A stretch of 64,000 nt of DNA from Octopus sinensis (lineage: Eukaryota). The notes beneath the pieces are model-generated. The model made no database searches, was not told the origin of the DNA, and saw only the letters and a list, made by a program, of their open reading frames with translations. Positions 6,206 through 36,348 of this stretch are shown here, one piece after another (positions within the stretch are counted from its first letter, which is position 1; each line of letters opens with the position of its first letter). The translations under genes were made by a program, and so were the position numbers. The DNA lies in the NCBI RefSeq assembly GCF_006345805.1, contig NC_043007.1, forward strand, positions 47,740,001-47,804,000, in the 5' to 3' direction.

Positions 6206-6382
6206 CCCTTTAGCATTTAAACCGGCCATATCCAGTCCAAATATTGCACCTGTTTTATGTCAAACTGGCCAGATCAATGTTATTCTAAAAATTTTAAATC
6301 ACATCAATGTAATCTTGAAGCTTTGGGAATAATGTGAAAGAATGAACATTGCATTGACGGGATAATCTGAATGCTAAAAGGT
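6206..6382. mobile_element. piggyBac-like MITE
   Basis: TTAA|CCCTTTAGCATT...AATGCTAAAAGGT|TTAA. Confidence 0.75.
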
Positions 6383-6412
6383 TTAAGTGATCTTAATTAC
6401 AAGTTAATTTAA

Positions 6413-6641
6413 CCCTTTTGTTACTGTGTTTATTTTGAGATGCTCTATGTTTCTTTCAATTACTTTATAACAAAGAATTTAGTAAAATAACTTATCATTC
6501 AGCTAGTGTTAGGAACATAAATTGTGACTAAGGTTTGGTAGAAGATTTTAATTCGAAACTTATGAAAACAAGACATTTGTACTCAGAGCCAGTTTCAAAA
6601 TAATGACAGTGTAGTTTAACAGAAATATGATAATAAAAGGG
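6413..6641. mobile_element. piggyBac-like MITE
   Basis: TTAA|CCCTTTTGTTA...TAATAAAAGGG|TTAA; related decayed pieces near 3420-3590 and 37560-37746. Confidence 0.75.
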
Positions 6642-7489: not shown

Positions 7490-7601
7490 TTTACAAAGAG
7501 CTCATGGCTACAGGCCATTTAGAGCAAATGTCAAGAGAGACTGATGAACAAGAACATAGTATAGAAATGCATTTACCATATATAGCTAAAGTAATGGAGA
7601 G
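7490..7601 (+). CDS. MEMO1: MEMO1 coding exon
   Basis: AG/GT flanked; [37 protein letters not shown] ([10 protein letters not shown] motif). Confidence 0.96.
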
Positions 7602-7661
7602 GTAAGTTAGCCAAAAATCAAAGTTTATAGCTGAATCACTATCAGAACTAGAGAAAAATTT

Positions 7662-8500
7662 TCAGGTGTGGAAGCATGGCCTAGAATCAAAGGGCCTTAG
7701 AGTTAACATAGAAAAAACTGAAGTCTTAGTAAGTACGAAAGAAGACAAGTTATAAATCCCTTCAGGTAGAAAATGGTCCTGCTTGATATGTAGAAAAGGC
7801 ATAGGTAGAAACTCCTTAAGATGTACCCAGTGCAGGCTATGGACACACAAGAGATGCAGCAATATCACAGAAAATAGTCTCTGTGTGTGGCAGGTGCAAT
7901 GGTACAATAAGTACTAGAAATGTACAGAAAATTGACTCCATCAAATGCAAGGGGGCGATACCTAGAAGCAGTTGATAGCTTCCGTTATCTAGGTGACCAA
8001 GTCACCAGTGGAGGTGGATGCTCTGAGAGTAGCTAGTAGAATAAGAATAGGCTGGGTAAAGTTCAGAGAACTACCTCTGTTGGTGACTAAGGGCCTCTCC
8101 TTTGGAGTGAAAGGCAGATAGTATAATGCCTGTGTACAAACAGCCATGCTACTCTGCAGTGAAACATGGGGTGTGACTGCTAAGAAAGAAATGAAGCTCA
8201 TATGCTTCGCTGGATGTGCAATGCCAGTATGCATGTACAACAGAGTTAGACCTCACAGAGGTGATGGTAAGTGACCGAGACCGTTGGTAATATGCTGTAC
8301 TTGAGAAAACTCATCAAGCCAAGTGAACTCATAGTTGTGGCCAATACTGGTGGCACACAAAAGCACTTGTGCCAGTGGCATATAGTAAACACCCATTACA
8401 CATCCAGTTGTAGCAACCATACCAAATCAGACTGGAACCAGTTCCAGTCAAACTGTCTAATCCATGCCATCATGGAAAGCAGACAATAAATGATGATGAG
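7662..8500 (+). mobile_element. RTE-like LINE 3' fragment (decayed)
   Basis: + frame WKHGLESKGLRVNIEKTEVL...CLICRKGIGRNSLRCTQCRLWTHKRCS (Cys-rich), FRYLG, IRIGWVKFRELPL; ends in CCATGCCATCATGGAAAG..(GAT)n tail. Confidence 0.8.
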
Positions 8501-8549
8501 ATAGATAGATATATGGCTAAAGTAATAGATATGTTACTATTTAACATAT

Positions 8550-8773
8550 GTAGTAAGGCAGTGAGCTGGCAGAAACATTAGCACGCTGGGCGAAATGCTT
8601 AGCAGTATTTCGTCTGTCTTTACATTCTGAGTTCAAACTCAGTCGAGGTTGACTTTGCCTTTCATCCTTTCAGGGTCGATAAATTAAATACCAGTTGCAT
8701 ACTGGGGTCAATCTAATCAACTGCCCCCTCCCTCCCCAAAAATTTCGAACCTTGTGCCTAGAATAGAAAAGAA
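8550..8773 (+). mobile_element. tRNA-head SINE with Nin/Deu-like central domain
   Basis: GCCTTTCATCCTTTCAGGGTCGATAAA domain; 12-bp TSD TATTTAACATAT at 8538-8549 and 8774-8785. Other copies at ~1-125(-), 9170-9585(-), 33985-34250(-), 34610-35065(+), 35850-36065(+), 55560-55755(+). Confidence 0.85.
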
Positions 8774-9847
8774 TATTTAACATATATTGTGAAAGTAATG
8801 GGGAGGTAAATTATTTACTATCTATAGCTCAAGTAATGAGCAGAGTAAGACTTGCTGCAAAAGCCATGATTTTGGGTTAACAAAGAATGAGTATACATAG
8901 ATAAATTTTTCTGTTGCACATCTTAAACTTTTATTTGTACAAATATAGTGTTTTGATGATATATGGGCCAAAGGGTGTACAGCAGTTGACCTTTGTTAAA
9001 CAGTGATAGAAATGTAAGCAGAAATGGTTGAGATTAAGTTCACATGTCTATGAAATTTATTTCTTCTTGAAAGTCTTTTTTGTGTGTGTGTGTTCGTAAG
9101 AATTTATAAACTTTTGAGAGAATGTGGAGTAATTCGTTTTTGAAATTGATTTTGTAGTATGATGCTATAAATAATCCTTTCTACTAAAGGTACAAGGCCT
9201 GAAATCTTAGCAGAGGGGACTAGTTGGTTACATTCACTCTAGTACTCAGTACTTATTTCATTGACCCTGAAAGAATGGCAAGCAAAGTCAACCTTGGCAG
9301 AATTTGAACTCAAGAGTGTAAAAACATGCCGTTTAACATTTTTTTCGGTATACTAACAATTCTGCCTTATAAATAATAGCACATAAAAATATTGATCTCA
9401 AATTTTGGTACTAAGCCAACAACTTTAGGAAATGGGGTAAGTTGATTATATCAACCCCAGAATTTAACTGGTACTTGTTTTGTCAACCCCAGAAGTATGA
9501 AAGGCAAAGTCAACCTTGGCAGAATTTAAACTCAGATCGTAAAGATAGATGAAATGCTAATGATTCTTCCAGTTTGCCACCTTAATAGCATGTAAATATT
9601 GGGTTGGTAAAAACCCCTTTTGAATAGGGAAAGACAAAGGCTGCTCATGAGATTTGAACCCACTTCTCCTGTAAACATAGCAAATGTTCTACTATTGGAC
9701 CTAAGTAATCCTTTGAATTTTTCTATCCATTTTAGAAACTTCTCACCAACAAGAATCGTGTGCATTTGATGTTATAAGCATTTATGAACTTTCAAGAGAA
9801 TAAGGAGTAATTCTTTCTTGGAATTCATTCTCAAAGTTTGTATAGTT

Positions 9848-10204
9848 GCAGGCATGGCTGTGTGGTAAGAAACTTGCTTGCCAACCACATGGTTCCAGGT
9901 TCAGTCCCACTGCATGGCACCTTGGACAAGTGTCTTCTACTATAGCCTTGGGGCCAACCAAAGCCTTGTGAGTGGATTTGGTAGGCAGAAACTGAAAGAA
10001 GCTTGTGGATGTATGTATATAAACGCAGGCATAGCTGTGTAGTAAGAAGTTTGCTTTACAACCACATGGTTCCAGGTTCAGTCCCACTAACACCTTGGAC
10101 AAGGGTCTTCTACTATAGCCTTGGGGCCAACCAAAACCTTGTGAGTGGATTTGGTAAACAAACTGAAAGAAGACCGTCATATATATACATATATATGTAC
10201 CGTC

Positions 10205-10238
<34 letters not shown>

Positions 10239-10440
10239 CTATGTCCCCACCACCATTGCTTGACAACCGGTGCTGGTGTGTGTTTGTCTCCATAACGTAG
10301 TGGTATGGCAAAAAGTGACTGATAGAATAAGTACTAGGCTTACAAATAAGTCCTGGGGTCAATTTCTTTGATTAAAACCCTTTAAGGTGGTGTGCCAGCA
10401 TGGCTACCATTAAGTGGCTGACACAAGTAATAAAATAAAG
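9848..10440 (+). mobile_element. tRNA-derived SINE with duplicated 5' half and internal (TA)/(TG) microsatellite
   Basis: head GCAGGCAT(G/A)GCTGTGT(G/A)GTAAGAA...GGTTCAGTCCC occurs twice (~9848, ~10025); 3' part ends CCAGCATGGC...CTGACACAAGTAA. Confidence 0.8.
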
Positions 10441-10669
10441 CTTCAACTTCCCCAAAAAAAATGTTTCCATATTCTCTCAAAAGTTTATAGTTCTTATGAT
10501 ATCAATCAGGATAATTAAATAATTTAATGCCAGAAAAATCAAAGTAGAATAGTTTTCGTCATTATCCTGTTAAATCGAGAGTGATTTCAAGATAAATATC
10601 AAATGTTTTTATTTTATCTTCATCCTTTTTTTCCTAGCAAATAAATTTATATTTAGAATAGATTCGAAA

Positions 10670-11122
10670 TCAAATTTGATGATTGGCATCCATGCTAGTG
10701 GAACACTAAAAGCACCATCCGAGCATGATCGTTGCCAGAGCAGCTGAGTGGCTTCCGTGCTGGTGGCACGTAAAAAGCACTATTCGAGTGTGATCATTAC
10801 TAGCGTTGCCCTACTGACACATGAAAAAACATTCAAGTGAAGTCGTTACCAGTGCCGCTGGACTGGCTCCTGTGCAGGTAGCATGTAAAAAAACACCATT
10901 GGAGCATGGCCGTTTCCAGGACTGCCTGACTGGCCCTCGTGCCGGTGGCACATAAAAGCACCCACTACACTCTCAGAGTGGTTGGTGTTAGGAAGGGCAT
11001 CAAGCTGTAGAAACTCTGCCAGATCACATTGGAGCCTGGTGCAGCCATCTAGTTCACCAGTCCTCAGTCAAATCGTCCAACCCATGCTAGCATGGAAAGT
11101 GGACCTTAAACGAGGATGATGA
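10670..11122 (+). mobile_element. RTE-type 3' end with internal tandem subrepeats
   Basis: repeated GGTGGCAC(G/A)TAAAA(A)GCAC units, then CCAACCCATGCTAGCATGGAAA and GAT tail, like the 7.7-8.5 kb LINE end. Confidence 0.65.
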
Positions 11123-11755
11123 CTAGATTATCATTTCCAATGCCCTTTGTTTACTTCATGGAATGGATATATTTGTAGCACAGTGTCCCATGCAGCCCTG
11201 TCCTAGTTATAGGCTGTGCTTAGTAGTTTTGGTATATTTTTACTGTAGCTTTATTGTAGCTGTTACCTAAGAAAGAGTCCAGCCATTACCCACATACAAA
11301 TGCGGCTTGGTAATATGCATCATGTTATTGCTAATTGTTGTAGGTGCCTGTGTGGTTGCTGGCAGATAGAACCAGATTCAGAATGTAACGACTAGAGGAA
11401 GAAAGAGCTATACCAGCACTTGGCTGGCACTCATTTTCAGTGGGTTAAACTGGAGCAAATTAAGATGAAGTACTTTGCTCAAGGATACAATATGCTGTTC
11501 ATTCCACAAATTGAACCCAACACATGATCAGCTGCCAGACACCCATACTGGACCACACTGCCAACAGCTGTGAACATCAGACATCCAAGTTCTCATCCCC
11601 TTACATAAAATGTTCTTCAAAAATGTTGTAATCCTCCCTTCCTCATTACTATAAATGTCACTGATTAAGCCACACTTTACATGTTATCTGTTCTTGTAAT
11701 GAATAACCAAGGCCTTAACTAATATACATGTTTACATGTCTTTTTGTTTTTTCAG

Positions 11756-11898
11756 TAAAAAAGGACAGTTTACTATAGTTCCAATTCTTGTAGGTTCATT
11801 ACAAGGAGATAAAGAAAAAATTTATGGGAAATTATTGGGGGAATATCTATCTAACCCAGAAAATTTGTTTGTGGTATCTTCTGATTTTTGTCACTGGG
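11756..11898 (+). CDS. MEMO1: MEMO1 coding exon
   Basis: AG/GT flanked; [47 protein letters not shown] (SSDFCHWG motif); within ORF 11736..12077. Confidence 0.97.
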
Positions 11899-13214
11899 GT
11901 AAGTTTATTTTGACTACATTGTTAATGCTGTCTCGTCTGTTACTGTTGGTTCTCTCAGCTAAACTTAATTTTATTTTGTATATCAGTGAGGGTGGGTGGA
12001 TGGATGTAGTTGAGTGGGATGCTTTATGGGTATTTTTGGTATTTTATCAGCTCCAGGAATCAAAAACCAAGATTTGACCCCAATTTAGGCTATCTGTCTC
12101 ACTACAAACTAATTTTCTTTCATCAATAAACAGCCAGTGTTTGTAGAGATGGAAGATACATGATTGAATCATTCATTATTTTGTTTGTTTAACATTTATT
12201 TTTCTGTGCTAGCATGGGTTAGATGGGAAGTTATTTGAAGTGGGATTTTAAAACCAGATGCTCTTCCTATCACCAACACTTATCAATTTTTCTAGCAAGG
12301 AATTTTTTTATTCTAAACGCTTTTGAAAGCTCAGTGACAAGTCAAAAGGCTAAAACGGAATGTCAACATCATTTTGCTCAAGTGTCCAATATTTACATTT
12401 GTATGCCAACACACATGCACACATACTTATATGTATAGATGTGTGTAGGCACAGTGGTTTTCCTAGCCACATGATTTTTAGGTTCGGACTCACTACGTCA
12501 TACACTGGACAAGTATTTTGCTATAATCTGAAGCCATTCAAATCCTTACAAGTGAATTTGGTAGAGGGAAGCTGAAAGAAGCATGCTGTATACATCTATG
12601 CTTGTACCTTTGTCTTGATATAGCATGATAGTTGTAAACAAGTGTCGCTGTCGTACAAGCTGTGTTAATTTCCAGTCTTCCATAAAAACATACCAGGCCA
12701 TGGGTAATAGTATCTTGTTTGGAAACAGGTTAGGGTTGGTAAAAGGAAGGCCTTCTAGTGAATGAAAATCTGTTTTGGTGAATTACATTTGATCTATGCA
12801 AGCATAGAAAAATAAACATTGAAATAACGGTGCTTGTGTGCACAAGCATGTCAAATTTAAAACTCAGCAATGTCCGATAACTGTAATATTCTGACATTTA
12901 GAATGTTTAAGGATTGCAAGCCATAACAACTTGAGCCTCTACATTGTCACTCCTATCTTAAAATAAGGACTCGTTGAGTAATGTAATTCCAGATATGCTT
13001 TCTAATGAAACGAGATGATGGTCATATTTGGAATGTCTTTTGATGATCGGTCTGCTTAATCATAGCTGACCTGGGCTGGCCATCAGTATCAATAATTAAG
13101 CAAAGTAGTGATACTGGTTTTGAAATACGAGTTAAATCCCACAATGCCACACAACAATGTGCTGACAAGGGAAAATACCTTGGTTTATGGTGTCTTTATT
13201 TGTTCTTTTTCCAG

Positions 13215-13291
13215 GTCGTCGTTTTAATTTTATTTATAATGATGAGGCAGCTGGTGAAATATGGCAGTCTATTGAATCTCTGGATAGAATG
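13215..13291 (+). CDS. MEMO1: MEMO1 coding exon
   Basis: AG/GT flanked; GRRFNFIYNDEAAGEIWQSIESLDRM. Confidence 0.95.
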
Positions 13292-14645
13292 GTATGGATT
13301 TTATTCTTGTTCTTCCTTATTTACTGCAAATATTCTTTATTTTTTTTCCCCATGGTTTACACACACTTACATGCATGTATGCATATTTATATTTGCCAAA
13401 ATGACAAAAAAAATCCATATTGATAAGTGCTGCAGAATCACTTGGAACAAAGTATACTCTGACACAATGGTAATGTTTAGAGGCTGAAATATTTTGTACC
13501 CTGCCAAACCTACACTTGCTACTCACTCACTTTGCATCTCTAACTCCACTTTTCATTTGCCTATTGTTCATTCCCATCCTTTCTTCCAACTCTTTATCAC
13601 TCATAGCCCTCCAGCTCCCATCTCCTTACTCTCCTTTGCCCTGCTGTACTGCCAGCCATCATTCTCTCTCCTCTGGACCACCTCTATTGCCGCCCACCAC
13701 CTGTTCTTATCTCATCACTTACCCTTGTCTTTGTCCACTTGTGCTGCTGCCAAATCACCCTTCTATCTTTTGAAATTTTGCTATTTTTATACTCAGCCTT
13801 TTCTCAGCTTGATTGTGCTCCATCATGCATTATACATCTAACAGAGAATACTCACCTCATTTCTTTTTAGTGTTTGTACACCTTCCACATTTAACACTCA
13901 TATTTCACAGCCATGTAACATCATACTTCATACAAAACCATTCATCATACAGTCAGCCCTATACTCAGAGAAAGGATTCCTTTGTTTCCATCAGAAACAG
14001 TAGCTGTGAACTTTCTCTACTCTATTCATATTCTAACTACTATATTCTCAGAATACCCTATTCCATTGCTAATTAGGTCATTACAATAGCAGAAGCTTTC
14101 AACTAAAACTAGGGGTCCTCCTAAGACATGAAAGAATTTTTCTCTTAGGTTCCCTTCTTTCCTGCTTACTAAAACTTTTGTCTTAGCTCAGTTTTACTTT
14201 GTGGTAACTCACTTCTAAGCTCTGCTCCCACATTTGCCATTCTTCTCAAAATGTTTGAGCTAGGTCAATCAGGGTTTCACATAAACAGCTTTTCTTAAAC
14301 TCCTATGTTTATAGCCTGGAGAACTATAACAAACTCAAGTTGCAAGTGAGAACCAAACTCAATAATTGCTAACTCACATTGCTGTACATGGCTTGTATGG
14401 TTCTCATTCACATGGTGTCTTGTCAAAAGCCTTCTCCAGATTAAGGGGATTGCTATTAGCTTTGAACTTCTATTTGTTATACTAAAGACAAAAAACGTAT
14501 CAGTGATTGTTTTCTGTAACCTTTATCGGACACAATGACCAAGTAGATACATTAGCTTCCACTGTTATGCCCATGCATTAGATATTAAGGTCTATTTAAG
14601 TTTTTATGTTTATTATTATTATTATTGTTTTTTTTTTTAATTCAG

Positions 14646-14750
14646 GGAATGTCTATTATTGAAAGGATGGATGCTAAAGCATTTTCAGAATATCTGCAAC
14701 AATATCAGAACACTATATGTGGTCGGCATCCAATCATGGTTCTGCTTCAT
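14646..14750 (+). CDS. MEMO1: MEMO1 coding exon
   Basis: AG/GT flanked; [35 protein letters not shown] (NTICGRHPI motif). Confidence 0.97.
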
Positions 14751-16542
14751 GTGAGTATACAGAAAGTCTTGAAAACAAAATATAAGTACCCTTTGTTAAA
14801 TGTCAGTTTGCTTCAAACAGCTTTATCACAACCAAGGAGTTAGTGCCTCATCAGTGGGATGTTACACAAACAAAAAGCTTCTCAAATCTCACATTTATAG
14901 CACCAACAGCTAATATTCTCGTATCTGTTGGACTGTGCCATTTTGGCAAAATGTTTTTTGGCTGACAATGCTTTGTGAAGGAAACTGGTTGTGTGTGTAT
15001 ATGGTGTACGTATGTCTGTATTTGTGTGTGTGTGTATAAATATGTATATAATCGCCATATATCACCTGTATTCTGTGCTGGCATGGTTTGAATGGTTTGA
15101 CAGGAACTGATTGGTCAGAGGACTGTGTTGAGGTCTAATGTCTGTTTTGGTATAGTTTCTAAGGCTGGATGCCCTTCCTAATATCAACCTTTTCACATGG
15201 TGAGCTGGGTACTTTTTCACGTCACTGGTATTAGCCAGATTGCCAAGTAGTTTGCAAGATAAGACCCCCTTGGTTGACAGTGAGTGTAGCATTGAGGGAT
15301 GTGGCTCATGCCAGATGTTCTGAGGAGTAGAAACAGGTGTCTTACTGTAGAGGAGTACCCATGCTGGAAAAGAAGAGATGGTGGTGATGAGTTTGTACCT
15401 CAAGGTACAAGATTGTGAATGTGAGAGGGATGGAGACAGAAAGAGATTATAGGGAATAAGGACAGGGGAACAGGTAAGTTCACAATCTAGGACACTCAGT
15501 AAACTGGTTGGCACTGGAAGGGCATCTAACTGTGGAAATCATATCAAAGCAGACATTGGAGCTCAATGAAGTCCTCTGACTTATCAAATCCAACCTATAT
15601 TGGCATGGAAGGCAAGTGTTAAATGATGATAATGATAACATATATGATGTGTGTATGTGAATGTTATAGTCCTTGTCTTTGTAGCAGGAAGGGCTGACTA
15701 AATCACTGCCTGAGCAAGTCTTTGTCTAGCACATGCCAGCATGAAAAACAAATATCACAGGAAACAAAATGAACCCAGTCAGGTAGCCATTAATGATCTG
15801 TTGCAGCTGTATGTCTTAAATGGTGGTTTTTGTTTCAATTGGTTAAATTTTACTTTTCAGTATCAGAAAATCTCAGCTCTATAAACTAATTTAAAATTAT
15901 GTTCCATCAACCCTAACTAGAATGTTGCCATCTCTATATTACACCACATTGTCTCTAATCTAATATTGCCATCTCTCTATATTCTGCTATATCATATCTG
16001 ATCTATTATCATCATATCTATCTCACCATACTTTATCTAATTTGATGCTACCAACTCTCTCTCTCTTACAATACTATATCCGATCTAATGGTGAACTTGG
16101 TATTGGACTACTAGTGAAAGCAGTTTCTTGAGCAGTGTTGTCACCGTAGACAAGCTGTTCTGCTTGATATATATATAAATATTTATATTTGAAAACATTT
16201 CACTCACACTCTGGTCTGGATGAGGTAAAAGCTGAATGCATACTTGTAAAATGGAGCAAGTAATCACCTGTATTAGCACATAGCTTAGTGTTGGCACATA
16301 GTTGTATGTTAGCTGTAAGGTTTTAACCTTGTAGATTTGGTAATGTTTATGATTGTCTCTTATATTTTCAAGTAATATATTTTCAAATGAGAGTTACAAA
16401 AACATGAACTCAGCTCTTTTGTAAGTTGGTCTGCTGGTATTTATATGTCTTTTTCTTAATATCACATTTACTCGTTCATCTACACAACAATTAATAGATA
16501 GTATATATTTTCTAATTATTTAATATTCTTTTTCCATTGCAG

Positions 16543-16674
16543 GCAATTGAAAGCATTCAAGAAATTGGTCACAACTTTAACATGAAGTTTCTAAAATATG
16601 CTCAGTCCAGCCAAGTGAAACACATTCGTGATTCGTCAGTTAGTTATGCATCTGCTGCTCTTACCATTCAGTGA
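16543..16674 (+). CDS. MEMO1: MEMO1 last coding exon
   Basis: ttgcAG|; AIESIQEIGHNFNMKFLKYAQSSQVKHIRDSSVSYASAALTIQ* (YAQSS, DSSVSYA motifs); TGA at 16672-16674. Confidence 0.96.
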   Translation, partial: AIESIQEIGHNFNMKFLKYAQSSQVKHIRDSSVSYASAALTIQ

Positions 16675-19236: not shown

Positions 19237-19526
19237 GACTTCTTTTTTAACTAGAAATAGTTGTTGACTCAATATTCAGTATCCATAAAAAATGTACCTT
19301 GGGTTTCAGAACATTAAAGGAATCATATTCTAAATTGAAGGCTATTGTCACCAGTAACAATAGCTGTATGAATTGAGCTGATCTAACGATCAGCAAAACA
19401 GCTGCAGTGTATTTAAACTTAAACTTGATGAATGATGAACTTGATAACACTTCTTTATATTCTATCCAAATATGGTAAAACTGGTTCACTTCAGCAGGTA
19501 AAGGGATGTTTATCTTCATTCTTAAT

Positions 19527-20201
19527 GTTTCAGCAGATTCAAACAGGAATATGCTAATCACTGTTTATTCTATCTGTGAAGAACAACTTTTCCTTTCAGA
19601 TGATCTGTGATAATACACTTGATTCATTGAGGACCAGGTTGTGTCTTTTCAATCAAGGCTACCCTTGGGTCAATGAATCTTAATGCTTTAGCATTTGGGT
19701 CACTCTGTCAAAGTTTATGCTTATATTTTCACTTTGTTTTGAATTAATTCTACATTATTTCACAGCTTCATAATTTTGATGATGTGATTGCCTATTTTTA
19801 CAATGGCATTAAAAGGTAGGTGTGAGAGGCCAGATCAGGCCAGTTTCAACATAAAGCAGAATATTTTGACCAGATATGACTGGTTTAGATACTAAAGTGT
19901 TGAACAAGGATTGTGGTTCTTGTTTATAGAAATCAGTAAATAATTTGCTATCACCTGCACACAGCAGCAAATAATTTTCTGATTTCTATAATCAAGAACC
20001 ACAGCCCTTGCTTAGATTCAATGATTTAGGGATAGCTTTGACAGAAGAAACACAACCTGGTCAAAATAATGTGATGTGTCAATGTGCCCTTATATTAATG
20101 ATTCAAGTATTTTGTGAACACACATCATCTGAGGAGAAATTGTTCTCCATAGACAAAAATATGGCAGCAGTTAGCATATTCATGTTTGAATCTGCTGGAA
20201 C
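19527..20201. repeat. foldback (long inverted repeat) element with nested TTAA MITE
   Basis: 19527-19680 and 19904-19949 are reverse complements of 19966-20201; MITE 19684-19899 interrupts the left arm. Confidence 0.85.
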
Positions 20202-20931
20202 GCAAGTAGTGTGCACATCATAAATTTCCAAAGAACACTGATATAATTTGGTGCCAACTTGTGACTGGAGCCTCAGTATTAGTATGCCAAGAACTTAAAT
20301 ATGTGATGATGCCCTGAGGTAATAGTATGTCCCATTTGTCATTGAGTCATTGCAGTAGTTCCTCATCTATTTCACTGTATCTACACAAAGTTGGCCTGCA
20401 GAAACCAGACATCCTTCTTCAAGATAGATGTATGGGGAGACTTGAACTTAGAGCTATACCTAACAAAACTCTTGTCAGTTGTGCAGTGTCCCCACTGTGA
20501 GCTGAATAATTCTATAACTTTTTTATTATGAAGATTGAGCCACATCATATTGCTGATGATGGGGAAATGTGAAAAATTTGGTCAGTAAGACTACATTTAT
20601 TGACTCAGCTGCTAGGAACTCCATTAAAGGAAGGTATTTAAAAGATATATATGATTTATATTGTCAACATCATTTAATAATATGTGTTCCATGCTGGCAT
20701 GGATATCAACTAGATTGGATGTAATCAAATACATTTCATTCACTTCAGCATGTTTTGTATTTAAATGATTGCCACATTATCAAACTTTGACCTTCAAATC
20801 CTAATACTAACCATACATCTCATTTCATGCATCATTCTGATGAATTGTTAAATATTGCTAGGATATGAAATCAAGTCCTGTACTACCAACCAACCTTATT
20901 GTCACTCAAAAAAACCCAAAAAAACCTGGCA

Positions 20932-22347
20932 TCTGTATATACACTTGTACCGCCGGTATTTGTCAGGCTAAGATAGTTAAGTCATGATTAAATTCGAGTT
21001 ATTTCCCTCAACTTCTGAATTGACATTGCTTGCAATGCTTGAAAGGTGTTAAAACTCTTCACTGTATATCCAAGCTTCCAGTTCCTTTAAGTGAAACAAG
21101 TGTGTGCAATGTTCCAAATTTTGATCAAGGAAACATTCTTAGAAGAGTAAAAGTTTTCATTACTGACAAAGCTTCAATGATACCAGTTTATGCTTTGAAA
21201 GCTATAGATAATTGTTTAAGAGATATATAAGAGATTGTATTAAAATTATTGTACTAGGAGGAGATTTTAGACAAGTTCTTTCAGTTGTTCCCAGAGCTCC
21301 TCCAGAAGCTGTACTTGATTCCTGCCTCAAACGCTCCTCTGTGTGAGATAATTTTCATCAAATGTAACTTACGCAAAACAAGAACAAATGCAAATGAACA
21401 AGATTTTTCAAGGTGGTTACTACAACTTGGAAGTGAATTTCTTCAAAGTTCTCTTGATAATCTCGCAGAAGATACTGTTGATATTCCTGAAGCATGCATG
21501 TGTAACAATTCTTTTGTATCTGATATATTTGACAATTGTACAGCAGAAGAAATGAAAAATAGAGTGATCTTATCCCCAAAAAATTCAGACTGCTTAGCAG
21601 CAATTGAAATTTTAAGTAGATTGCCCACTGAAACTAAGACAAATCTAAGCACTGACTTAGTAACTTCTGATAACGAAGAAGCCTAGAATTATCCCATTGG
21701 AGTTTATAAACACTTTTACACCTTCTGGAATGCCTCCCCATCACCTTAACTTTAAAGTTGGAGCAATTATTATACTTCTTAGAAACCTCTCTATAATACA
21801 AGGTCTGTGCAATGGAACTTGCTTGTAAGTACTTCAGCTTCATGAGCATAGCATCAATTATAAGTGGATCTCATTCTCACACGGGAGCACTGATTCCAAG
21901 AATCAAACTTACTCCAAGCAATGCAAACATTCCATTCATTCTGCATTGGACCCAGTTCCCGGTTCATCTGTCCTATTCTATGACAATAAAGCAGAGGGGC
22001 AAACATTCAATAGAGTTGACATACACTTGCTACAGCCATGCTTCACTCATGGCCGGCTTTACATAGCTTTTTCAAGAGCAAGGGTGATGAACAGTGTGAG
22101 GTTTAAAGTGATGCCTGAAAACGCATCCACTCGTGGTTGCAGAAGGGAATCACCTACACTAGATACCTTGTGTATAGGGAAGTGGTGTAATGGATGTATT
22201 TAATATATACTTATTAATAAATATAACATAAAGGATTATAGAAGTTTTCATTAACCAAAATAGTGCAAATTAAACCATTTTAATCAAATATCTATTCATT
22301 GAATGATATTTTAATTATCCATGAATTTTCCTCACGGGTCCAGCTAG
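20932..22347 (+). mobile_element. internally deleted Helitron carrying a decayed PIF1-type helicase C-terminus
   Basis: A|TC 5' end, 3' hairpin CCATGA..TCACGG then CTAG|T; helicase motifs ITDKASM, LGGDFRQVLSVV, FSRWLLQLG, ILSPKN, TPSGMPPHHLNFKVG, LRNL..GLCNGT, IPRIKLTP, QFPVHLSYSMTI, FTHGRLYIAFSR broken by stops/frameshifts. Confidence 0.92.
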
Positions 22348-23182: not shown

Positions 23183-24300
23183 CTCTATACTGTAGGTCTT
23201 CTGGAGGAGTTTTGAAGAAATTGTCAAGCAATGTAGGTAAAACAATACAGAGTTTGTGAATATACCTGTGTCCAAGTGATTCTGTATATTAACTATTAAT
23301 GAAGGTCATTTAAAACAATGTTTGGAAAGAAGTAAAAAAAAATAAATACAACAAGAACTTGAGTTCCATTTGTGATACGGTGTCTCACTGCTGTCTTCAA
23401 GAAACTAGTTTTGGTCTCTGCTCCGAAAAGGATTATTTGCAGCTTTTAGTATCCTTGTTGCAGTTGTTAAATAAAATCAAAAGCATAAAATCATAAGAAA
23501 CTCCCTTGAAGAATAATGAGATTACTGTTTTTAAAAAAAGGTTGTGAAACTTCTGAATTTAATGTTAATGGCTGATAGATTTGTCAAAGAGAATTTCAAG
23601 TTAGGTAAGTAATTAAAACACTGTTAATCAATTGAAAAATTGTTTTCTTTTTTCAGTTTGTTTGAACATTAAAAAGTAGCAATGGAGTGAAGCCTGAACT
23701 TCAAATATATATATGTGTGTGTCTAACCTAAAGTTCACTTATGCTTAAACACTACTTGGTATTGATACTGCTGAATTTTTCCTAACCGGGTGGACTAATA
23801 ACAATTCAGTCAATGTTGTTTACTGTGCTTCAGTTAATGTTATGGCTTTAAATCTGCCCAGAGTTAACTCTCTTCAGTATTTCCCATTGATAATGACTAG
23901 AGAGCATGACACACTGCATCTGAGAATCAACACTGGGCAGATATGGTGTTTTTATACCTTTTTACCATAATAGAGGGTATTTTCTCCATGGTTATTGCAG
24001 TGAATTTGCCTTTAGAAGTTGAAGTGTGTCACAAACACAGTTTAACTAATCTAAAGTTTGCTTATGCCTAAACATTGCTTGGTGCAGATAACAGTACTGA
24101 AAAAGGGCAAATAGCCTGAAACCAGGTTGGTCTACTGGTCTTGTCAAATCCCTATATGGTAGCGATTCGCTCCCCTGCTCTCAATATATCAGACATAGGT
24201 TGTGTCATTAACCAGCTGGAGGAGGTGTTCTGGGCTACAAAAAAGGAGTAATGTTGTTCTGTATGAAACACCCATGTTGAAGCACCAACAAACATTACTT

Positions 24301-28178: not shown

Positions 28179-28609
28179 GGATCTTTTTGGTTTGAACGGC
28201 AGTTTTTTCTAGCGGTGTCATATGAAATTGTCATCCATAATTATGACCCTAGTATCGATCTATTGCATTTCAATCTGTTTTAGGGTTAGGGTTAGTTAGG
28301 GTTAGGGGTGGGGAAAGGGTATCTTTTTTTCTTCACAAATGTAAATAAACCCAATCTGTTTCTTAAACGAGGGACATATTCATACGGCACAGAATGTTTT
28401 TTTTTTTTACCTCAATAGACGTCAGTGATTGGTTTAAATTGCAGAAATTGAAGAAAAAAACAACAAATATCTTACAAACTATAGAATTTTCTCAATAAAG
28501 CCAAGAGAAAAAGATGTTTTATAAACACATTCTACCAGTATACGAAGTTTAAAATTTTTTAGTTACCTAGAAATTATGTTAAAAACTGCCGTTCAAACCG
28601 AAAAGATCC
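28179..28609. mobile_element. MITE with GG-starting TIRs and 8-bp TSD (Merlin-like), containing TTAGGG repeats
   Basis: TIR GGATCTTTT(T/C)GGTTTGAACGGCAGTTTTT (~29 bp, 1 mismatch); perfect TSD TATTATTC at 28171-28178 and 28610-28617. Confidence 0.85.
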
Positions 28610-28727
28610 TATTATTCAAATTATATATTTTCAGGTAAAATATTTAGCAGATATCAATCGGAATTTTTTCTGTTTTTTTTTTTGAAGAGTGCTTCACGTC
28701 TTGAGCGGCCTTAGTATCATAGTAAAA

Positions 28728-28838
28728 ATGGCTGACATCGAAGAGAATTTACGTGAATTAGTGGAATTACAGAACGACTACAATGCTACATTACACGACA
28801 TTCAACTTTTGGTGAGAGATATTGAAAGACTACAAAAG
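28728..28838 (+). CDS. uncharacterised ~100-aa coiled-coil-like protein, exon 1
   Basis: AAAATGG start context; MADIEENLRELVELQNDYNATLHDIQLLVRDIERLQK; donor after 28838 or 28841 (both in frame); CpG-retaining surroundings. Confidence 0.75.
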
Positions 28839-30579
28839 GTGGTGTGTCTTACGTTTTTCTTTTGTATCTCTTCTATTAATTTTCATTGTGAAAACCATCC
28901 TGTAGAATGGAAGATATGTTATTCTGTAAACTGTCAACATTAGCGGAGGATGAGAACACCTTCCGTTAATGTCGTCATATTTTGCTTCTGCTTCTTTACC
29001 AGTTGTAACTTCAGTTAAATAAAAGGCTGAAAGTAATTAACATGTATAGTTAGCAAGGAATATGGAAAAAGGGAACTCAAACGGCCCATCTTCAGGAATG
29101 CAATAATGAAAGTAGTAGTGGTGATGGAATGTTTTGATTAATTTCAATGATTCATATTTTTAGAGGAAGGGTTAACAGGTAATTTTGATGAGCAACATAA
29201 ATGGAATGAAATTAATTGGCATTCGCTTGAAATTCTATGTAGACTCACTCTCCCATACCTCTCTATACACAGTAGCGTACCATACCAGTAATATATTTTG
29301 TTCCCGTCGCACACACTTCTGTTAAATTATATATATATATACACACACACACATATAAAAATACATGAACTGTTAACTCGTTTGGTGTATTACCAACAGC
29401 TTTAACATATTCCGACAGTTTCTCATGTTTTTATATTTGAATTATAATAAAATTTAGCAGAACTGAAACCTATTATAAATCTAATTTCTTTACATGTAAA
29501 ATAGAAATTATCTTGGAAGTTAGCTGTGGTGTTGAATCAAAGTTCGAATTCTGCTGGGTTTAAAAAAAAAATTTCAATTACCTATAAACTATTGGGGTAT
29601 TTATAATTTACTCTAATCTCACCCCGCCCTTCCAATTGTGGTCTTGTACCAAAGTTAGAGTTTCTTACTGAAGCAAACACTTCAATAGACTAGGAAGAGA
29701 TTTGGTTCTTAATCATTTTTGCAGCATTCATTCCTTAAGTCATGGAATCCTAAGTAATTAGAACGTAACATCTATATTATTTTGTATGTTTGTATGAGGT
29801 ATGCATGCAAACTCGTCGCCAGACTTAGAATATTCTGGGAGGGCACTAATTTGTAATAATAATAAAGTGGGGTTTCTCGACAAGTTCTTTAATTGGAGTT
29901 CTGATCTTTTAACCAGTCATAACTTTTTTCATTTTTTATTTTTTGGTATCTTCAGAAAATTTTTGTAAACTGTAGTTTCTAAATCTGAGGATGCACTATT
30001 GAATAGTGAGGGGACAGTGCCGTCTAGTGTCTCTTTTTCCTTAGCAATGGGCATGTATGTATGTAAAGTGTGAGAGAGGCATATTGTTACTTTATTTTCT
30101 ATCAATGACTATTTTCTTTGGCTTTTGATTGTTATTTTTTCATTAAATAGTTTTCTTAAATATCCCATAATCATTTTATCATACACTTTTCCATGCTTAT
30201 GTTACCTTCGACGGAATTTGTTGAGGTAAATTTTCTATGGCCAGATACCCGTCCTGACATGATCCTGTACCTGTTTCTTAAGAAGGTGATGCTTCCTCAA
30301 GGCCAGGCAAGTTGTTCATGGAAAGATAGCAGAGATTCTTTAGTTAAAATTTCACCTAATGCTATCCTCCTCTTCAACATCGTCATCATCTACTATGACT
30401 CAGGGATTCCAGTATGGCTGCTCTACCATTCATATTATTTGCTGCCCAGATCACCCGAAGCAGTAGAACTAGGCATGTCCAGACAATTGAACAGGATTAT
30501 CATTACATTGTGCCATTTTAGGTCAATTGTATTGTCTGGTTTTTATTAATAACATTTTCCTTATAATGTCTTTTTGCAG

Positions 30580-31690
30580 GTTACCTCAGTGATGAATGAC
30601 AATGACCTTACTTTCATGGCTGGTGACTTCAATAGACACGTTGGGTAGCATCCTGGAGGATTCCATGATATGCATGAAAGCTATGGATTTAGTTCTTGAG
30701 CTGAGGAAAGAACAAGGTTCTTGGAGTTCTGTGATGTAAATGACCTAATAATTCAGAACACTAACTTCAAGAAATGAGACAGTCACCTGATCATTTATCA
30801 GTCTAGTGGGCATACAAGCCAGACTGACTATATCCTCATTAGAAAGCAGGTTAGTTAGATGCTTGTAAATACAAAGTCCTTTCCAGATGAAGAATGTTCT
30901 AAGGTTAGTTGTTAACGACTTCAGACTTAGAAGGATTCAGAGACACAAACCAATCTGGAAAAGGAAAATACAGAAAGAATGGTCTGAGATATATGTTTAA
31001 ATCAGAACTTCTATATAATGAAAAGGAGATAGACATATGACACTTAGGAGAATTGGAAGTTCTTATAGGACAGCATATTTATTGTAGTCAGGGTGTGGAC
31101 GACATGGTGGTGGAATGGTGAAGTAAACAGAGCCATAAAATCAGTGAGACAGGTTTGGGATGAATGGAAGAAGGAGTAGGAGCAGAGGATTATATCAAGT
31201 TACTGAAGGAGAAGATAGACAACAGGTATATTTAGAAAGGGGAGAAGTAGAAAGGAAGAGGTTTGTCAATGTTCTGTAGCATGATGACAAAGGCATGAGG
31301 TTTTCTGGAGTGCAAAGCAATGTATTACTGAAAATTGAGACATTGCAGAGAAGTGTATATGAATAGATAATGGTACACTTACACTTAGTGATGCTGAAAA
31401 GAAAGAGGCATGAAAGTGCTACTGTGAAAGGCTACTAAACATGGAGAATATATGGGAGAAATAGAGCTTTCTAAATATGAACTGTGGGACTGGCTATTCT
31501 AGCTGACAGCTGTATGATTGATAAAGCAATTAAAGATATGAAGATAGGGAAAGCTGGTCCATTAGGAATTACCTCCCAGATGCTTAAATATCTGGTGATG
31601 TGAGATACAGCCTAGTCTTCCATATAATTAATCAGTTTGTACAGGAAGGTATCATACCTCACAATAGGCATAACATTACAATCAATCCTT
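30580..31690 (+). mobile_element. RTE-like LINE fragment (endonuclease to start of RT), decayed
   Basis: MAGDFNRHVG, NTNFKK, SQTDYILIRK, TWWWNGEV, AIKDMKIGKAGP motifs with stops. Confidence 0.8.
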
Positions 31691-31759
31691 AAAAAAGGCG
31701 AACACTTGACAATATGATCCTTCATAATTATCTTTATTTTTCTCTGATTTTATTTACAG

Positions 31760-31874
31760 GAGAATGAGAGTTTGGCTGTGCAGCAAGACTGTTCTGAAAG
31801 TTTTAACTGGTCTCCATTGAAAGAAACATTACGGATTGTACTGGAAATAGACAAGAACCCTGAACTTGAAGAAG
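31760..31874 (+). CDS. uncharacterised ~100-aa protein, exon 2
   Basis: long pyrimidine tract + tttacAG|, AAG|GTacac donor; open, phase 0 to 1: ENESLAVQQDCSESFNWSPLKETLRIVLEIDKNPELEE. Confidence 0.75.
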
Positions 31875-32520
31875 GTACACTCTTCTTTTTACAATTTTAA
31901 TCTTTTGCTCTCACTCTTTGCCATATTCCTGCGATACCTACTGCAACATTCTTAATGTTGCAGTTATGTTTGATCCAGTTTAGAGTTAGTGTGTCTCAGC
32001 ATATTTCTCCCTACATGGATGAGAAAAGGGAAAGTGTTCATGTCAGTCATGTTAAATGAATAAATTGTAATATCTCTCTTTCTTTTGCTCTCTCCCTCTT
32101 TCTTTCTCTCTCTCTCTCTCTCTGTATATGTATATTTCTCTCAGTGTGTATGTGTGTTTGCCTTCAATGCCAAAATCTACTGTTGCAAAAACAGGCTGAA
32201 TGTCCAGTCAATTATGCCAAATCATCAGTGTCCAAACAACTGCACCCAGCCATCTCATGTCAAAGATTCACTATGTCTAAACAAGGAGGGAATGGTCAGG
32301 ATTGATCATGAGCTAGACAGCTATGATAATAAATCAATGGCTATGTACAAAAGCAAGCAATTCATCCATCTTAACATTTTGTGTTCAAATTCTCTCAAGG
32401 TCGACTTTACCTTTCATCCTTTTGGGGTTAATAAACACTGGGGTCAATGTAATTGACTACTCCTCTCCCTCCAAATTTCAGGTTTTGTGCCTTCTGTAGA
32501 AAGGGTGATTATTATTATTA

Positions 32521-32995
32521 CATGGAAAAATGTGAGCATGAAAAGTCATATTCTTAAGATTATAAACCTGGAAAAGTACAGGACAAATTATTACACCTGT
32601 AAAAGTATAGGACAAGCTATTACTTCTTGTAAAGAATAAAGAACTTTTTACTTAAAATATTGCAGCAAAGAATGCCAGATCTTCTAATTTATCACTCTAT
32701 ACAGTTCTCATCTTTTAAATTTATTGTACAAAACTGTTCAGCTAATTCATAAGTTTGTCTAATTAGTCACTTTTTTCTGCATTTAAGGTAGTAAATTAGC
32801 AAAATTTTACTTAAATAAGAATAGTGTTATTTGTAAACTATAATAAAATAAGTTTTAATATTCAAATTTTAATTTTTGCTGCAATATTTTAAGTAAAAAC
32901 GTTTCTTATTCTTTACTAGAAGTAATAGCTTGTCCTATACTTTTCCAGGTTTATAATCTTAAGAATATGACTTTGCATGCTCACATTTTTCCATG
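32521..32995. mobile_element. MITE with long terminal inverted repeats
   Basis: TA|CATGGAAAAATGTGAGCATG...CATGCTCACATTTTTCCATG|TA; inverted homology extends over 100 bp; related sequence at ~52440-52585. Confidence 0.8.
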
Positions 32996-35378
32996 TAATC
33001 CATGATTTTTCCAGACATTGCTCTTATAACATAATTAATAATGTGACAATTAATAATTTAAGATTTAACTGAAAGATAATATTTCAATTTTTCTATAAAG
33101 TGATGATATTTAAATTTTTTTCATGTTTAATATAAATATATGTTGTGATTAAATTATTTGATATTACCCATCCACACCAAATTAATGGCAGGAAATTTTA
33201 CCATGTTGTTGGTTGCACCATGGTTCACCAAAAGTTACGAACAACAAGACCCCAAAACCATCAGTTACCAGGCTCACCTTAAGTAACCTAATTTTGCAAT
33301 ATTAGGAGGTCACAGGAATTCATTCAATGAAAAAAAAAATTTCCAATGATTCTGGGATTGAGCAGGGACCCCTCCACCTCATTTTTTCCGAACCAAAATA
33401 AGGGATTTGCAGCATATTATGAGGTCAGGGTATTCGATTCCACGCAAAAAATCAAATTTTTATTTTTCTTTCTTAGTGAAAATCGTGACCATAATGTTGT
33501 TATTTAACCTCAAATCAACCCTGATACTGCAAACTTATCACCAAAGACATTCCAGCCTTCAGCAAACCTTCTTTTTAGGGATAATCTAGGACATTACATA
33601 CAATGGGCATGTTATTTAGATAGGGGGATACTATGGCTGCTATTTTTAGCATGTTGAGCGACGAGGTAGAGGCTCTTCCATTGGTTCAATTCTGTGATGA
33701 GATTTTTTTATACATATATGTAATATGTATATATATATCATCGGCAGAAGTTAGAGAGTAAGTCAAAAGCTGAGAGTTTCATGTATTGGCACTTATCAAA
33801 CATGAATTTGTCCATTGTCACTCTGTAACTTCTGATAAAATAACTTCTAAAATACAAAAATTTGTCAAAAACGTTAAGAGTAAACCCTGTCCTGTGTGAC
33901 ACAGTCTACCAGTATCGGAAGTTTGAAAGTGTTTAGTTAAAAAAAAATTAATCAAATAATCTGTATGTCTAATTGAATGGATCCGAAATGGATGAAAGGC
34001 AAAGTCGACCTCAGCGGAATTTGAACTCAGAACATAAAGACAGATGAAATACCACTTCTAAAATACAAAATTTTGTCAAAAATATTCTACCCGTATCAGA
34101 AGTTTGAAAGTGTTTAGTTAAAGAAAATTAATGAAATAATCTGTACATCAAAGTCGACCTTGGCGAAATTTGAACACAAAACATAAAGACAGACAAAATA
34201 CCGCTAAGCATTTTGTCTGGCGCACTAACATTTCTGCCAGCTTGCCACCTTAGAATGTAAACATTCATTTTAGAAATATATTCTTTATTCTTATTGCTTA
34301 AGTGTTACTTCTTACTTACTGACATGAAATTTTCATAACATTTTACCTCATAACTGTTTTTCTACTAAAAAAAATTATGTTTATTGAAGATGAATATCTG
34401 CCTTACTGCCCACTTGAGGTCTGACATATTTTGATGTAATTTGTTTTCTACTGAACCAAATCTCAAGCTATTTATGCCAAAGTGTAGCTGAAGAGGTGTC
34501 CTCTTTAATTCAGTTGAGAACTGAATTAGTGGTGAAGCTTGGAAGCTGCTGCGATTGACAAAATGGTGGATTTAAGAATATATTCAACCACTACCATGGT
34601 TGAATGATTAAGGCGGTGAGCTGGCAGAAGTGTTAGTATGCTGGGTAAAATGCTGCTATGCATATTGTCCGTCTTTACATTCTGAGTTCAAATTCTGCTG
34701 AGGTCGACTTTGCCTTCCATCCTTTCAGGGTCAATAAAAAATACGTTCCAGTTAAATACTGGGGTCAGTGTAATTGACTCGCCCACTCTCCCAAAATTGC
34801 TGTGGCAAAAAATTTGAAACCATTATTATTATTATTATTATTATTATTAAGGCAGCAAGCTGATAGAATGGTTAACACACTGGACAAAATACTCAGCAGC
34901 ATTTCGTCTCTCTTTACGTTCTGAGTTCAAATTCCATTAAGGTTGACTTTGCATTTTATCCTTTCAGGGTTGGTGAAATAATGCTAGCCAAATGGTGGTG
35001 GTGGTGGTGGTGGGGGGTCGACTAGCCCATTCCTCCTAAATTTCAAGCCTTGTGCCAATAATAGATTTATATCTATTATTATTATTTTAAGAGATTTTCT
35101 TGCAGTTTTCCATGTTTCCTAAATAGGAGAGTTAGAACAATATATCTTGCCTAAGGAAACAATATTTGATAAGAAACTTGATTGCTTAACCATTCAATAA
35201 TTTATTCAGTCTCTACATAACATTTAATAGTACCCCAGCACTCATATATTGAGTCATTCCATAAATAATGCTTTTTTTTCAATTGCATGAACTAATATAT
35301 ATATAAATCTGTAATTGCCATATATAAGGCTGTTTGATGTTTCTTTCATTACTATTTTCTCTCTTCCTATTTTTACAG

Positions 35379-35455
35379 ATGTTTTACAAGTGTTGAGTCA
35401 GAAGCTTTCCTCACTTCGGATGGACCTGTCGGCTTTAAGAAGTGCTGATCACTAA
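35379..35455 (+). CDS. uncharacterised ~100-aa protein, exon 3 (stop)
   Basis: pyrimidine tract + tttacAG|; phase 1 continues (D)VLQVLSQKLSSLRMDLSALRSADH* with TAA at 35453-35455. Confidence 0.72.
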
Positions 35456-36348
35456 CATATGCACATCTTCATGTCTTTAACTCTCCATTTATTTGCTAGT
35501 GTTCCATTTGACCCCATTCCTTCTCTACCTTACCACATAGATTGTCATTTGTTGTCGCCTCTTGAACTTTTTTGTGATATTTTATCATAATGACCTACAG
35601 ACAAGCAAATGACAGACGCTTACAGAGAAACAGTATCATAGAGAAAAAAGTGTGCTGTGAAAAATCCAGCAATCTTATATATTTTGTCTATTGCATGAAA
35701 TCTTGTAGTGAAGAATTGGTAACATGCCTGATCTAACTATGTCTGTATGTCAGGTGTGTCAGGAGTTTTTTAATTCCCAAATAATTTTTGAACTTTATTT
35801 TCTGGTCTCTTGAAAACTCATCATTTTTGTATCAATGTAGTTATGAAGTTAATGACAGCAAGCTAGCAGAATCATTAGCATGCTGGGCAAAATGCTTAGC
35901 TGCATTCTGTCCGTCATTATGGTCTGAGTTCAAATTCCATCAAGGTCAGCTTTGCCTTTCATCCTTTTGGGCTCGATAAAACAAGTACCAGTTGAACAAT
36001 GGGGTCAATATAATCGACTTACTCCTCCCCTAAGATTGCTGGCCTTGTGCCAAAATTTGAAACCAATATAGTTATGAAGTTATATTTATTGAGATTTTAA
36101 GAATTACATCAACAGTTAGTCACATATCATCTTTCACTTTGTTATTCGTCGTTCACTTTTGATTAAATTTCATTCTCTGTCTGCTATGTAATCTCATTAT
36201 AAATACTTCCAAAAGAATATAAGAATTGATTTGGTAAGACTGTCATCTTGCCTGGATCAGTTCAGTATTTTGTTACAGAATCAACAACTTTAAAATTGTT
36301 TGTGATAAACAGTTATTAAGGCACCAAAAATGCAAAGAAATATTTCCC

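What the first reader, a model, noticed from the sequence alone, without database searches (positions are those of the whole stretch)
28728..35455. Unrecognised three-exon gene encoding a 100-aa coiled-coil microprotein
Seen: three exons with canonical splice sites and compatible phases join to MADIEENLRELVELQNDYNATLHDIQLLVRDIERLQKENESLAVQQDCSESFNWSPLKETLRIVLEIDKNPELEEDVLQVLSQKLSSLRMDLSALRSADH. There is heptad-like Leu/Ile spacing at both ends with a short linker. The ORF track only shows exon 1. I do not recognise the family. Inference: a lineage-restricted or fast-evolving subunit of a helical complex (kinetochore, BLOC/BORC or synaptonemal types are possibilities only).
Basis: partly seen in the sequence, partly recalled or inferred. 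Interest (0 to 1): 0.7.

Follow-up and report, generated by a model that had tools for sequence, protein, structure and literature searches.

The report
Real octopus coiled-coil gene, partner unknown
This is a real, spliced, single-copy octopus gene that public annotation already lists as 'uncharacterized'; its 100-residue product is predicted to be three helices and likely works as a small coiled-coil adaptor in a protein complex we could not identify, and we found only three relatives.

Summary
The gene is real. Exons 28728-28838, 31760-31874 and 35379-35455 join through GT-AG introns to a 100-codon frame, and junction 1 is in contigs of 4 of 4 runs laid. It is not unrecognised: NCBI holds it as uncharacterized LOC106873292 in Octopus bimaculoides (1 residue different) and in Argonauta hians (8 different). 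It is single copy. One further relative was found, P0003, 55% identical, organism not given. No Pfam family reached its cut-off, and no PDB or fold match stood above background. AlphaFold2 gives a long helix, a linker and two more helices, with uncertain packing (pTM 0.37-0.40). The heptad core is the best conserved part (17 of 21 columns invariant). Best reading: a stand-alone coiled-coil adaptor; the complex is unidentified. Nothing here points to kinetochore, BLOC/BORC or synaptonemal roles in particular. Whether it is cephalopod-born or an old family diverged past detection stays open. A conserved export-signal-like motif at residues 81-90 is a weak lead. Modest interest.

The parts
28728..28838 (+). 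Coding exon 1, residues 1-37, most of helix 1 (zipper)
   Evidence: frame, donor; contigs cover from 28732, 28742 or about 28765 to the donor
31760..31874 (+). Coding exon 2, residues 38-75: end of helix 1, linker with invariant Trp54 and Pro56, helix 2, turn at Pro71
35379..35455 (+). Coding part of last exon, residues 76-100 and stop: leucine-rich helix 3 with export-signal-like pattern at residues 81-90
35456..35895 (+). 3' UTR, at least to about 35895, where the contigs would end just before a dispersed repeat
   Evidence: 517 nt follow exon 2 in 4 of 4 contigs; arithmetic; repeat family D6 begins at 35910
28839..31759 (+). Intron 1, 2921 nt, GT-AG, phase 0
   Evidence: table 5
31875..35378 (+). 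Intron 2, 3504 nt, GT-AG, phase 1
   Evidence: inferred from protein conservation and contig lengths
28665..28727 (+). T-rich tract ending in AAG at 28687, then 40 nt without ATG: a possible acceptor, so an unseen 5' non-coding exon may exist
   Evidence: sequence; no contig piece shown covers it; inference only

Best explanation
The locus is a spliced, single-copy gene for an acidic 100-residue protein that is predicted to be all-helical and likely acts as a non-enzymatic coiled-coil adaptor inside a larger protein complex. Shown: the gene, its conservation in three relatives, and a conserved heptad core. Predicted: helix 1 (residues 2-45/51), a linker, helix 2 (55-69), a break at Pro71 and helix 3 (71/73-99). 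Inferred mechanism: helix 1 has six heptads with Ile/Leu/Tyr at a, Leu at d and an Asn at a (residue 39), a pattern I recall from parallel two-stranded zippers, so it would pair with a second copy or a partner zipper. Extra conserved hydrophobics at e positions (8, 22, 29) would let the first four heptads take a third or fourth helix. The Trp-x-Pro linker would set a bend, and helices 2-3 would form a hairpin whose invariant leucines and invariant small or charged residues (84-89, 91-92, 95-97) dock a partner. Which complex it joins is not identified.
For: Splicing. Full-length conservation with no indel over 95 aligned residues, 52 of 95 identical and 77 of 95 positive to P0003; P0003's best genome match is this locus. 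Invariant columns: 17 of 21 at a/d, 11 of 22 at e/g, 14 of 32 at b/c/f; linker 46-54 least conserved, 3 of 9. Two AlphaFold2 models agree on the helices (pLDDT 80.4 and 84.1) but not on a compact fold (pTM 0.37 and 0.40), as expected of a chain that folds on a partner. Weak Pfam scores are mostly coiled-coil families and all under cut-off. No long hydrophobic stretch or catalytic motif is visible; pI 4.4, charge about -12. Prior: essential taxon-restricted proteins in yeast and worm are enriched in coiled coils and interactions (PMC5633384, passages).
Against: No partner, localisation, tissue or peptide evidence. The heptad register was read from P0001 itself, so the conservation contrast leans towards it, and it rests on three sequences, two of them 91% identical. 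Low pTM also follows from a three-sequence alignment. The two models differ in where helix 1 ends (45 or 51). The prior from PMC5633384 concerns genes already known to be essential; this gene's essentiality is unknown.
Confidence: 0.55

Rival explanations
1. It is the diverged orthologue of a named small subunit of meiotic or chromosome-segregation machinery (TEX12, SYCE3, or a kinetochore subunit) that standard profiles miss in octopus.
For: Size and helix-turn-helix layout resemble these proteins (recalled). Pfam TEX12 (PF15219) found 0 matches in the genome and SYCE3 (PF15191) none over cut-off, so these slots are not visibly filled. Simulated relatives at about three times the P0003 distance are mostly missed: 15 of 60 found at 2.5 and 7 of 60 at 3.0 substitutions per site. 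PMC5633384 (abstract and passages).
Against: Neither profile scored the proteins or rang at this locus. An exon-by-exon genome search is insensitive, so the empty slots mean little. No such chain is among the top rows of the fold searches apart from a generic SYCP1 coiled coil (Z 6.2, rmsd 15.8). At least 19 runs from 7 studies hold the last exon, which does not look germ-line-only, though tissues are not given.
Confidence: 0.15
2. It is a zipper-only decoy in the sense of a microProtein: helix 1 captures a leucine-zipper protein and residues 81-90 act as a CRM1 export signal that moves the pair out of the nucleus.
For: Each of the 3 proteins has exactly one class-1a-like pattern, at the same place, with a hydrophobic residue at heptad position f (residue 90). 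The strict form L-x3-L-x2-L-x-[LIM] is shared in 2.6% of column shuffles and 7.7% of heptad-preserving shuffles. No basic DNA-binding region. The mechanism is described for ZPR proteins (PMC9638782, passages).
Against: The general pattern is shared in 35% and 40% of shuffles, and the strict pattern was chosen after seeing the motif. Consensus matching has high false-positive rates (PMC6488578, passages). Helix 3 is predicted as continuous helix that runs on past the motif with invariant Leu92 and Leu95. A microProtein normally has a larger relative with the same domain; none was found in the genome or the library. No bZIP Pfam family scored.
Confidence: 0.12
3. The three exons are the tail or an alternative form of a longer gene, reached from an unseen upstream exon or from MEMO1.
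For: A possible acceptor lies at 28687 and one frame is open for 14 codons before the ATG. In run X16 a 1342-nt contig holds only 72 nt of exon 1 and 636 nt in front that were not placed. MEMO1 ends 12 kb upstream on the same strand.
Against: All three proteins begin Met-Ala-Asp at the same column; the ATG context is strong; MEMO1 has its own stop at about 16673; the search without length limit found no longer protein with this domain, the three long hits being short local matches.
Confidence: 0.05

Closest known systems
Uncharacterized protein LOC106873292, XP_014776088.1 / UniProt A0A0L8H1X0 (Octopus bimaculoides) and GAB1601257.1 (Argonauta hians)
   Same: Same gene: 100 aa, 99 and 92 of 100 residues identical to the window product.
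   Different: No function, family or paper found for them.
P0003, unnamed 102-aa protein from a 917-nt Logan contig
   Same: 52 of 95 identical without gaps, same start, best genome match is this locus.
   Different: Organism not given; linker and helix 2 more diverged.
Rrp47/C1D (Sas10/C1D family, 4wfd_B)
   Same: The row with the best full-length fit to model 1: 92 residues aligned, rmsd 4.2, Z 7.0.
   Different: 10% identity; Z is within helical background; absent from the top 50 for model 2; PF04000 matches elsewhere in the genome, not here.
ESCRT-I Vps23/TSG101 core (2caz_D, 2f66_A, 2p22_A)
   Same: Coiled-coil stalk followed by a helical hairpin; Z 7.0, rmsd 3.4 over 55 residues for 2caz_D.
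   Different: 2-5% identity; PF09454 matches elsewhere in the genome, not here; no UEV domain.
Synaptonemal central-element proteins SYCE3 and TEX12
   Same: About 90-120 aa, all helical, self-assembling coiled coils (recalled).
   Different: No profile score on the proteins or at the locus.
LITTLE ZIPPER (ZPR)-type microProteins
   Same: Small, zipper without a DNA-binding region (PMC9638782 passages).
   Different: No larger relative sharing the domain was found; carries a second conserved half.

Membership tests
Spliced protein-coding gene | Canonical introns removed in transcripts | tested here: met
   Junction 1 in 4 of 4 runs; junction 2 indirect only
Spliced protein-coding gene | Frame conserved in other species | tested here: met
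   P0001, P0002, P0003
Spliced protein-coding gene | dN/dS below 1, or peptide evidence | not testable with these tools
   No orthologue DNA could be fetched; no proteomics tool
Coiled-coil protein | Heptad repeat with conserved hydrophobic a/d core in a predicted helix | tested here: met
   15 of 21 core columns hydrophobic in all three, 17 of 21 invariant; helices
Coiled-coil protein | Oligomerises with itself or a partner | not tested
SYCE3 (PF15191) | Profile match | tested here: not met
   Not among families listed for P0001 (E up to 10) or P0002/P0003 (E up to 1); no match at this locus. Profile-profile search not available
TEX12 (PF15219) | Profile match | tested here: not met
   same caveat
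SYCE3 / TEX12 | Meiosis-specific expression and axis localisation | not testable with these tools
   Run tissues are not given
BLOC-1/BORC and kinetochore small subunits | Profile match to any Pfam family of these subunits | tested here: not met
   None over cut-off; only the generic CENP-F leucine zipper at 11.9-16.7 bits against a cut-off of 34.5
BLOC-1/BORC and kinetochore small subunits | Fold match to a solved subunit | tested here: inconclusive
   No E <= 0.001; no Z >= 8 among 48,161 chains
Sas10/C1D (PF04000) | Profile match | tested here: not met
   3 matches elsewhere in the genome, none here
Vps23/TSG101 core (PF09454) | Profile match | tested here: not met
   2 matches elsewhere, none here
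DPY30 (PF05186) | Dpy-30 motif | tested here: not met
   15 matches elsewhere, none at this locus; considered because DPY30 neighbours MEMO1 in human (recalled)
CRM1 cargo with class 1a export signal | Hydrophobic pattern x3, x2, x1 | tested here: met
   Residues 81-90 in 3 of 3 proteins; shared by chance in 35-40% of shuffles; spacing recalled, class named in PMC6488578
CRM1 cargo with class 1a export signal | Exposed motif and CRM1-dependent export | not testable with these tools
   Needs cell assay
microProtein (ZPR/Id type) | A larger related protein carrying the same interaction domain | tested here: inconclusive
   None found, but short zippers are hard to match
Taxonomically restricted gene | No detectable homologue outside the clade | tested here: inconclusive
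   Only 3 true relatives, one of unnamed origin; detection fails beyond about 2 substitutions per site

The most novel reading that the evidence does not exclude
A protein family born in the cephalopod lineage and kept single-copy under strong constraint, which couples a leucine zipper to a CRM1 export signal or to a cephalopod-specific complex and so adds a new subunit to core cell machinery.
Probability: 0.2. Interest if true: 0.55.

Novelty: new member of a known kind. Interest (0 to 1): 0.25.

Why it matters
The gene call itself adds little, since public annotation has it. What remains is one small, constrained, family-less coiled-coil protein among the many taxon-restricted genes of any animal genome (about 10-20% of genes according to the introduction of PMC5633384). 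It would matter if it proved to be a missing diverged subunit of meiotic or segregation machinery, which would extend that family's phylogeny, or a cephalopod-born subunit of a core complex. Both are cheap to test with a profile-profile search on more cephalopod orthologues and existing tissue RNA-seq.

Tried and rejected
Sequence searches: Pfam, nothing over cut-off for P0001 (6 families at E up to 10) or P0002/P0003; PDB sequences, best E 0.29 and 0.21; ESM Atlas, best 0.80 and 0.76, below the 0.9 lead level; word-index searches gave only P0001 and P0001 plus P0003, near lengths only. P0004-P0006 rejected as short local matches in unrelated long proteins. Viral contigs: 0 of 38 candidate stretches. 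Metagenome contigs: 1 of 119, L027, rejected as a 26-bit coiled-coil match inside a 285-aa ORF beside a transposase-like ORF. Weak own-genome hits on C10266 (E 0.6-0.7) not pursued. Folds: Foldseek PDB none at E <= 0.001 for either model; BFVD none; VIA wide best Z 7.3 and 6.4. Family slots: DPY30, C1D/Sas10 and Vps23 core lie elsewhere; SYCE3 and TEX12 not found anywhere, uninformative. Rfam: 0 matches in the window, so no sign of a snoRNA host. Neighbours: 40 kb upstream and 60 kb downstream of the window showed mainly transposon-like frames by eye and no useful gene. Literature: 0 papers for LOC106873292, LOC115216979 and the three accessions, 0 for octopus+MEMO1+synteny, 0 for the kinetochore query. 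Supplements: no hit in PMC9712504 (3 files; one PDF unreadable), PMC9815951 (1 small file) or PMC11202624 (1 file that uses no LOC-type ids); marker tables not held may bear on expression. No RNA holder is listed as RNA on record; five same-study runs held next to none of the words. Earlier findings of the scan: nothing. A paper on central-element phylogeny was not held.
Full report
Observation. Only exon 1 shows among frames of 80 aa or more. Contigs of four public runs from four studies were laid on 28300-33650; each has one contig that joins exon 1 to exon 2, skipping 2921 nt with GT..AG ends, and no mismatch in the listed exon pieces. Three of the runs are guessed to be RNA and one is of unknown kind, so these are spliced contigs rather than counted reads. 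The second donor, 3 nt further on, was not seen. All four contigs carry exactly 517 nt after exon 2, which would end at 35895 just before a dispersed repeat, and 19 of 24 listed runs, from 7 studies, hold all sampled words of 35380-35900.

It is already annotated. A search with exon 1 returned P0001, uncharacterized protein LOC106873292 of Octopus bimaculoides. Its cluster has a second member, P0002 from Argonauta hians, named after LOC115216979. The window product differs from these at 1 and 8 of 100 residues, so the window is from an Octopus species (inferred). The gene is single copy: the three best of six genome matches are the three exons and the other three have E 0.6-0.7; exon 1 DNA matches only itself. 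No held paper names these ids.

Relatives. A profile of P0001 and P0002 scored against all 1.84 billion representatives gave 5 hits at E up to 0.001: P0001, P0003 (104 bits) and three long proteins with short local matches that I rejected. P0003 is 102 aa, from a 917-nt unnamed contig, 52 of 95 identical with no gap, and its best genome match is this locus. Adding it found nothing more among 152 candidates. To ask what this absence is worth I simulated divergence of P0001 (BLOSUM-derived rates, gamma shape 1, no indels, 60 runs per distance) and scored with the same profile and library size. P0003's score corresponds to about 0.75-0.8 substitutions per site. Detection was 58 of 60 at 1.5, 40 of 60 at 2.0, 15 of 60 at 2.5 and 7 of 60 at 3.0. 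The simulation is generous, having no indels. If P0003 is a squid or cuttlefish (my guess; not shown), other molluscs could lie near or past the limit, which is the null model of PMC7660931 (abstract seen). The collection is also thin for this gene, three sequences in all. So restriction to cephalopods is neither shown nor excluded.

Anatomy. The protein is 11.7 kDa, pI 4.4, with 18 Leu and 22 acidic residues. AlphaFold2 gives H2-45, H55-69, H71-99 (pLDDT 80.4, pTM 0.37) and H2-51, H56-69, H73-99 (84.1, 0.40): confident helices, uncertain packing. In helix 1 the a positions are I4, L11, Y18, I25, I32, N39 and the d positions N7, L14, T21, L28, L35, L42; in helix 3 the core is L78, L81, L85, L88, L92, L95. 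Across three sequences 17 of 21 a/d columns are invariant against 11 of 22 e/g and 14 of 32 b/c/f (the register was read from P0001, so this leans my way). The linker is least conserved, 3 of 9, but W54 and P56 are invariant, as is P71. Ile at a, Leu at d and Asn at a is the pattern I recall for parallel two-stranded zippers; conserved hydrophobics at e (8, 22, 29) suggest a wider bundle in the first four heptads. Residues 81-90 fit a class-1a export-signal pattern in all three proteins; the loose pattern is shared in 35-40% of shuffles and a strict, after-the-fact pattern in 2.6-7.7%, and such patterns give many false positives (PMC6488578, passages). It is a lead only.

Comparison with known families. 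No Pfam family reaches cut-off; PDB sequence hits are at E 0.2 or worse; Atlas scores are 0.80 or lower. Foldseek finds nothing at E up to 0.001 in PDB or BFVD. The wide structural search has no Z of 8 or more among 48,161 chains. Two rows were worth a test, Rrp47/C1D (92 aligned, rmsd 4.2, Z 7.0) and the Vps23 core (Z 7.0); both families match elsewhere in the genome and not here. DPY30, considered because I recall it beside MEMO1 in human, also lies elsewhere. SYCE3 and TEX12 profiles ring neither here nor convincingly anywhere in the genome, which leaves that rival open but unsupported.

Surroundings. MEMO1 lies upstream on the same strand and stops at about 16673. Between it and the gene are old repeats. 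An element with terminal inverted repeats (about 28179-28608) ends some 120 nt before the ATG, followed by a T-rich tract and AAG at 28687, so a non-coding first exon further upstream is possible. The frame is open for 14 codons before the ATG, but all three proteins start Met-Ala-Asp in register and the ATG context is strong, so I take the protein as complete. One unexplained record: in run X16 the contig holds 72 nt of exon 1 and 636 unplaced nt before it, at depth 377 against 10-13 in the other three runs. Its break near 28765 fits no AG exactly; an assembly chimera is my guess. Flanks of 40 kb and 60 kb beyond the window gave no informative neighbour, and Rfam found nothing in the window.

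How it most likely works. Shown: a transcribed, spliced, constrained small gene. Predicted: three helices. Inferred: helix 1 zips with a second copy or a partner, the Trp-Pro linker bends the chain, and the leucine-rich hairpin docks another protein, making it an adaptor subunit of a helical complex (0.55). Rivals: a diverged named meiotic or kinetochore subunit (0.15), a zipper decoy with an export signal (0.12; mechanism as in PMC9638782, passages), a fragment of a longer gene (0.05). PMC5633384 (abstract and passages) gives a general prior that essential restricted genes are coiled-coil rich and often act in chromosome segregation, but says nothing of this gene. Oligomer state could not be modelled.

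Verdict. A correct gene call on a gene that public annotation already holds without a function. No family, partner or tissue could be assigned. It is a new member of a common kind, the small taxon-restricted coiled-coil protein. Interest 0.25; 0.55 if it proves a cephalopod-born subunit or shuttle (probability about 0.2).

Noticed in passing
window about 4480-16673 +: Exons of a MEMO1 gene (Pfam Memo, E 3e-12 on 11703-12074; further motifs at 4484, 7552, 14718, 16633); it starts at or before 4480 and stops about 12 kb upstream of the finding on the same strand.
   Followed up: partly
window about 28179-28608: Element with about 29-nt terminal inverted repeats, very high contig depth, ending about 120 nt before the start codon; MITE-like.
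   Followed up: partly
window 28765-28836 (run X16, record 17): A 1342-nt contig carries only 72 nt of exon 1 and 636 unplaced nt in front, at depth 377 against 10-13 in other runs: chimera or alternative 5' form.
   Followed up: no
window 19500-20250: Two inverted, head-to-head copies of an old dispersed repeat centred near 19957; 45 genome matches, those elsewhere at about 68-79% identity.
   Followed up: yes
window 21020-22200 +: Broken frames that look like a Helitron/PIF1 helicase remnant (recalled resemblance; Pfam gave no hit on the two frames tested).
   Followed up: partly
window 57592-60090 -: 832-codon open frame with a reverse transcriptase domain (RVT_1, E 2e-31): a fairly intact non-LTR retrotransposon.
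   Followed up: partly
window 23607-23657 +: A strong donor (AG|GTAAGT) and an acceptor about 50 nt later; could belong to an unseen 5' exon of the gene or be chance.
   Followed up: no
G000 contigs C8223, C8593, C9778, C9532, C12463, C8702, C9077, C9310, C12602 and others: The Dpy-30 motif has 15 genome matches, many on unplaced contigs and several with equal scores: an expansion or assembly duplicates.
   Followed up: no
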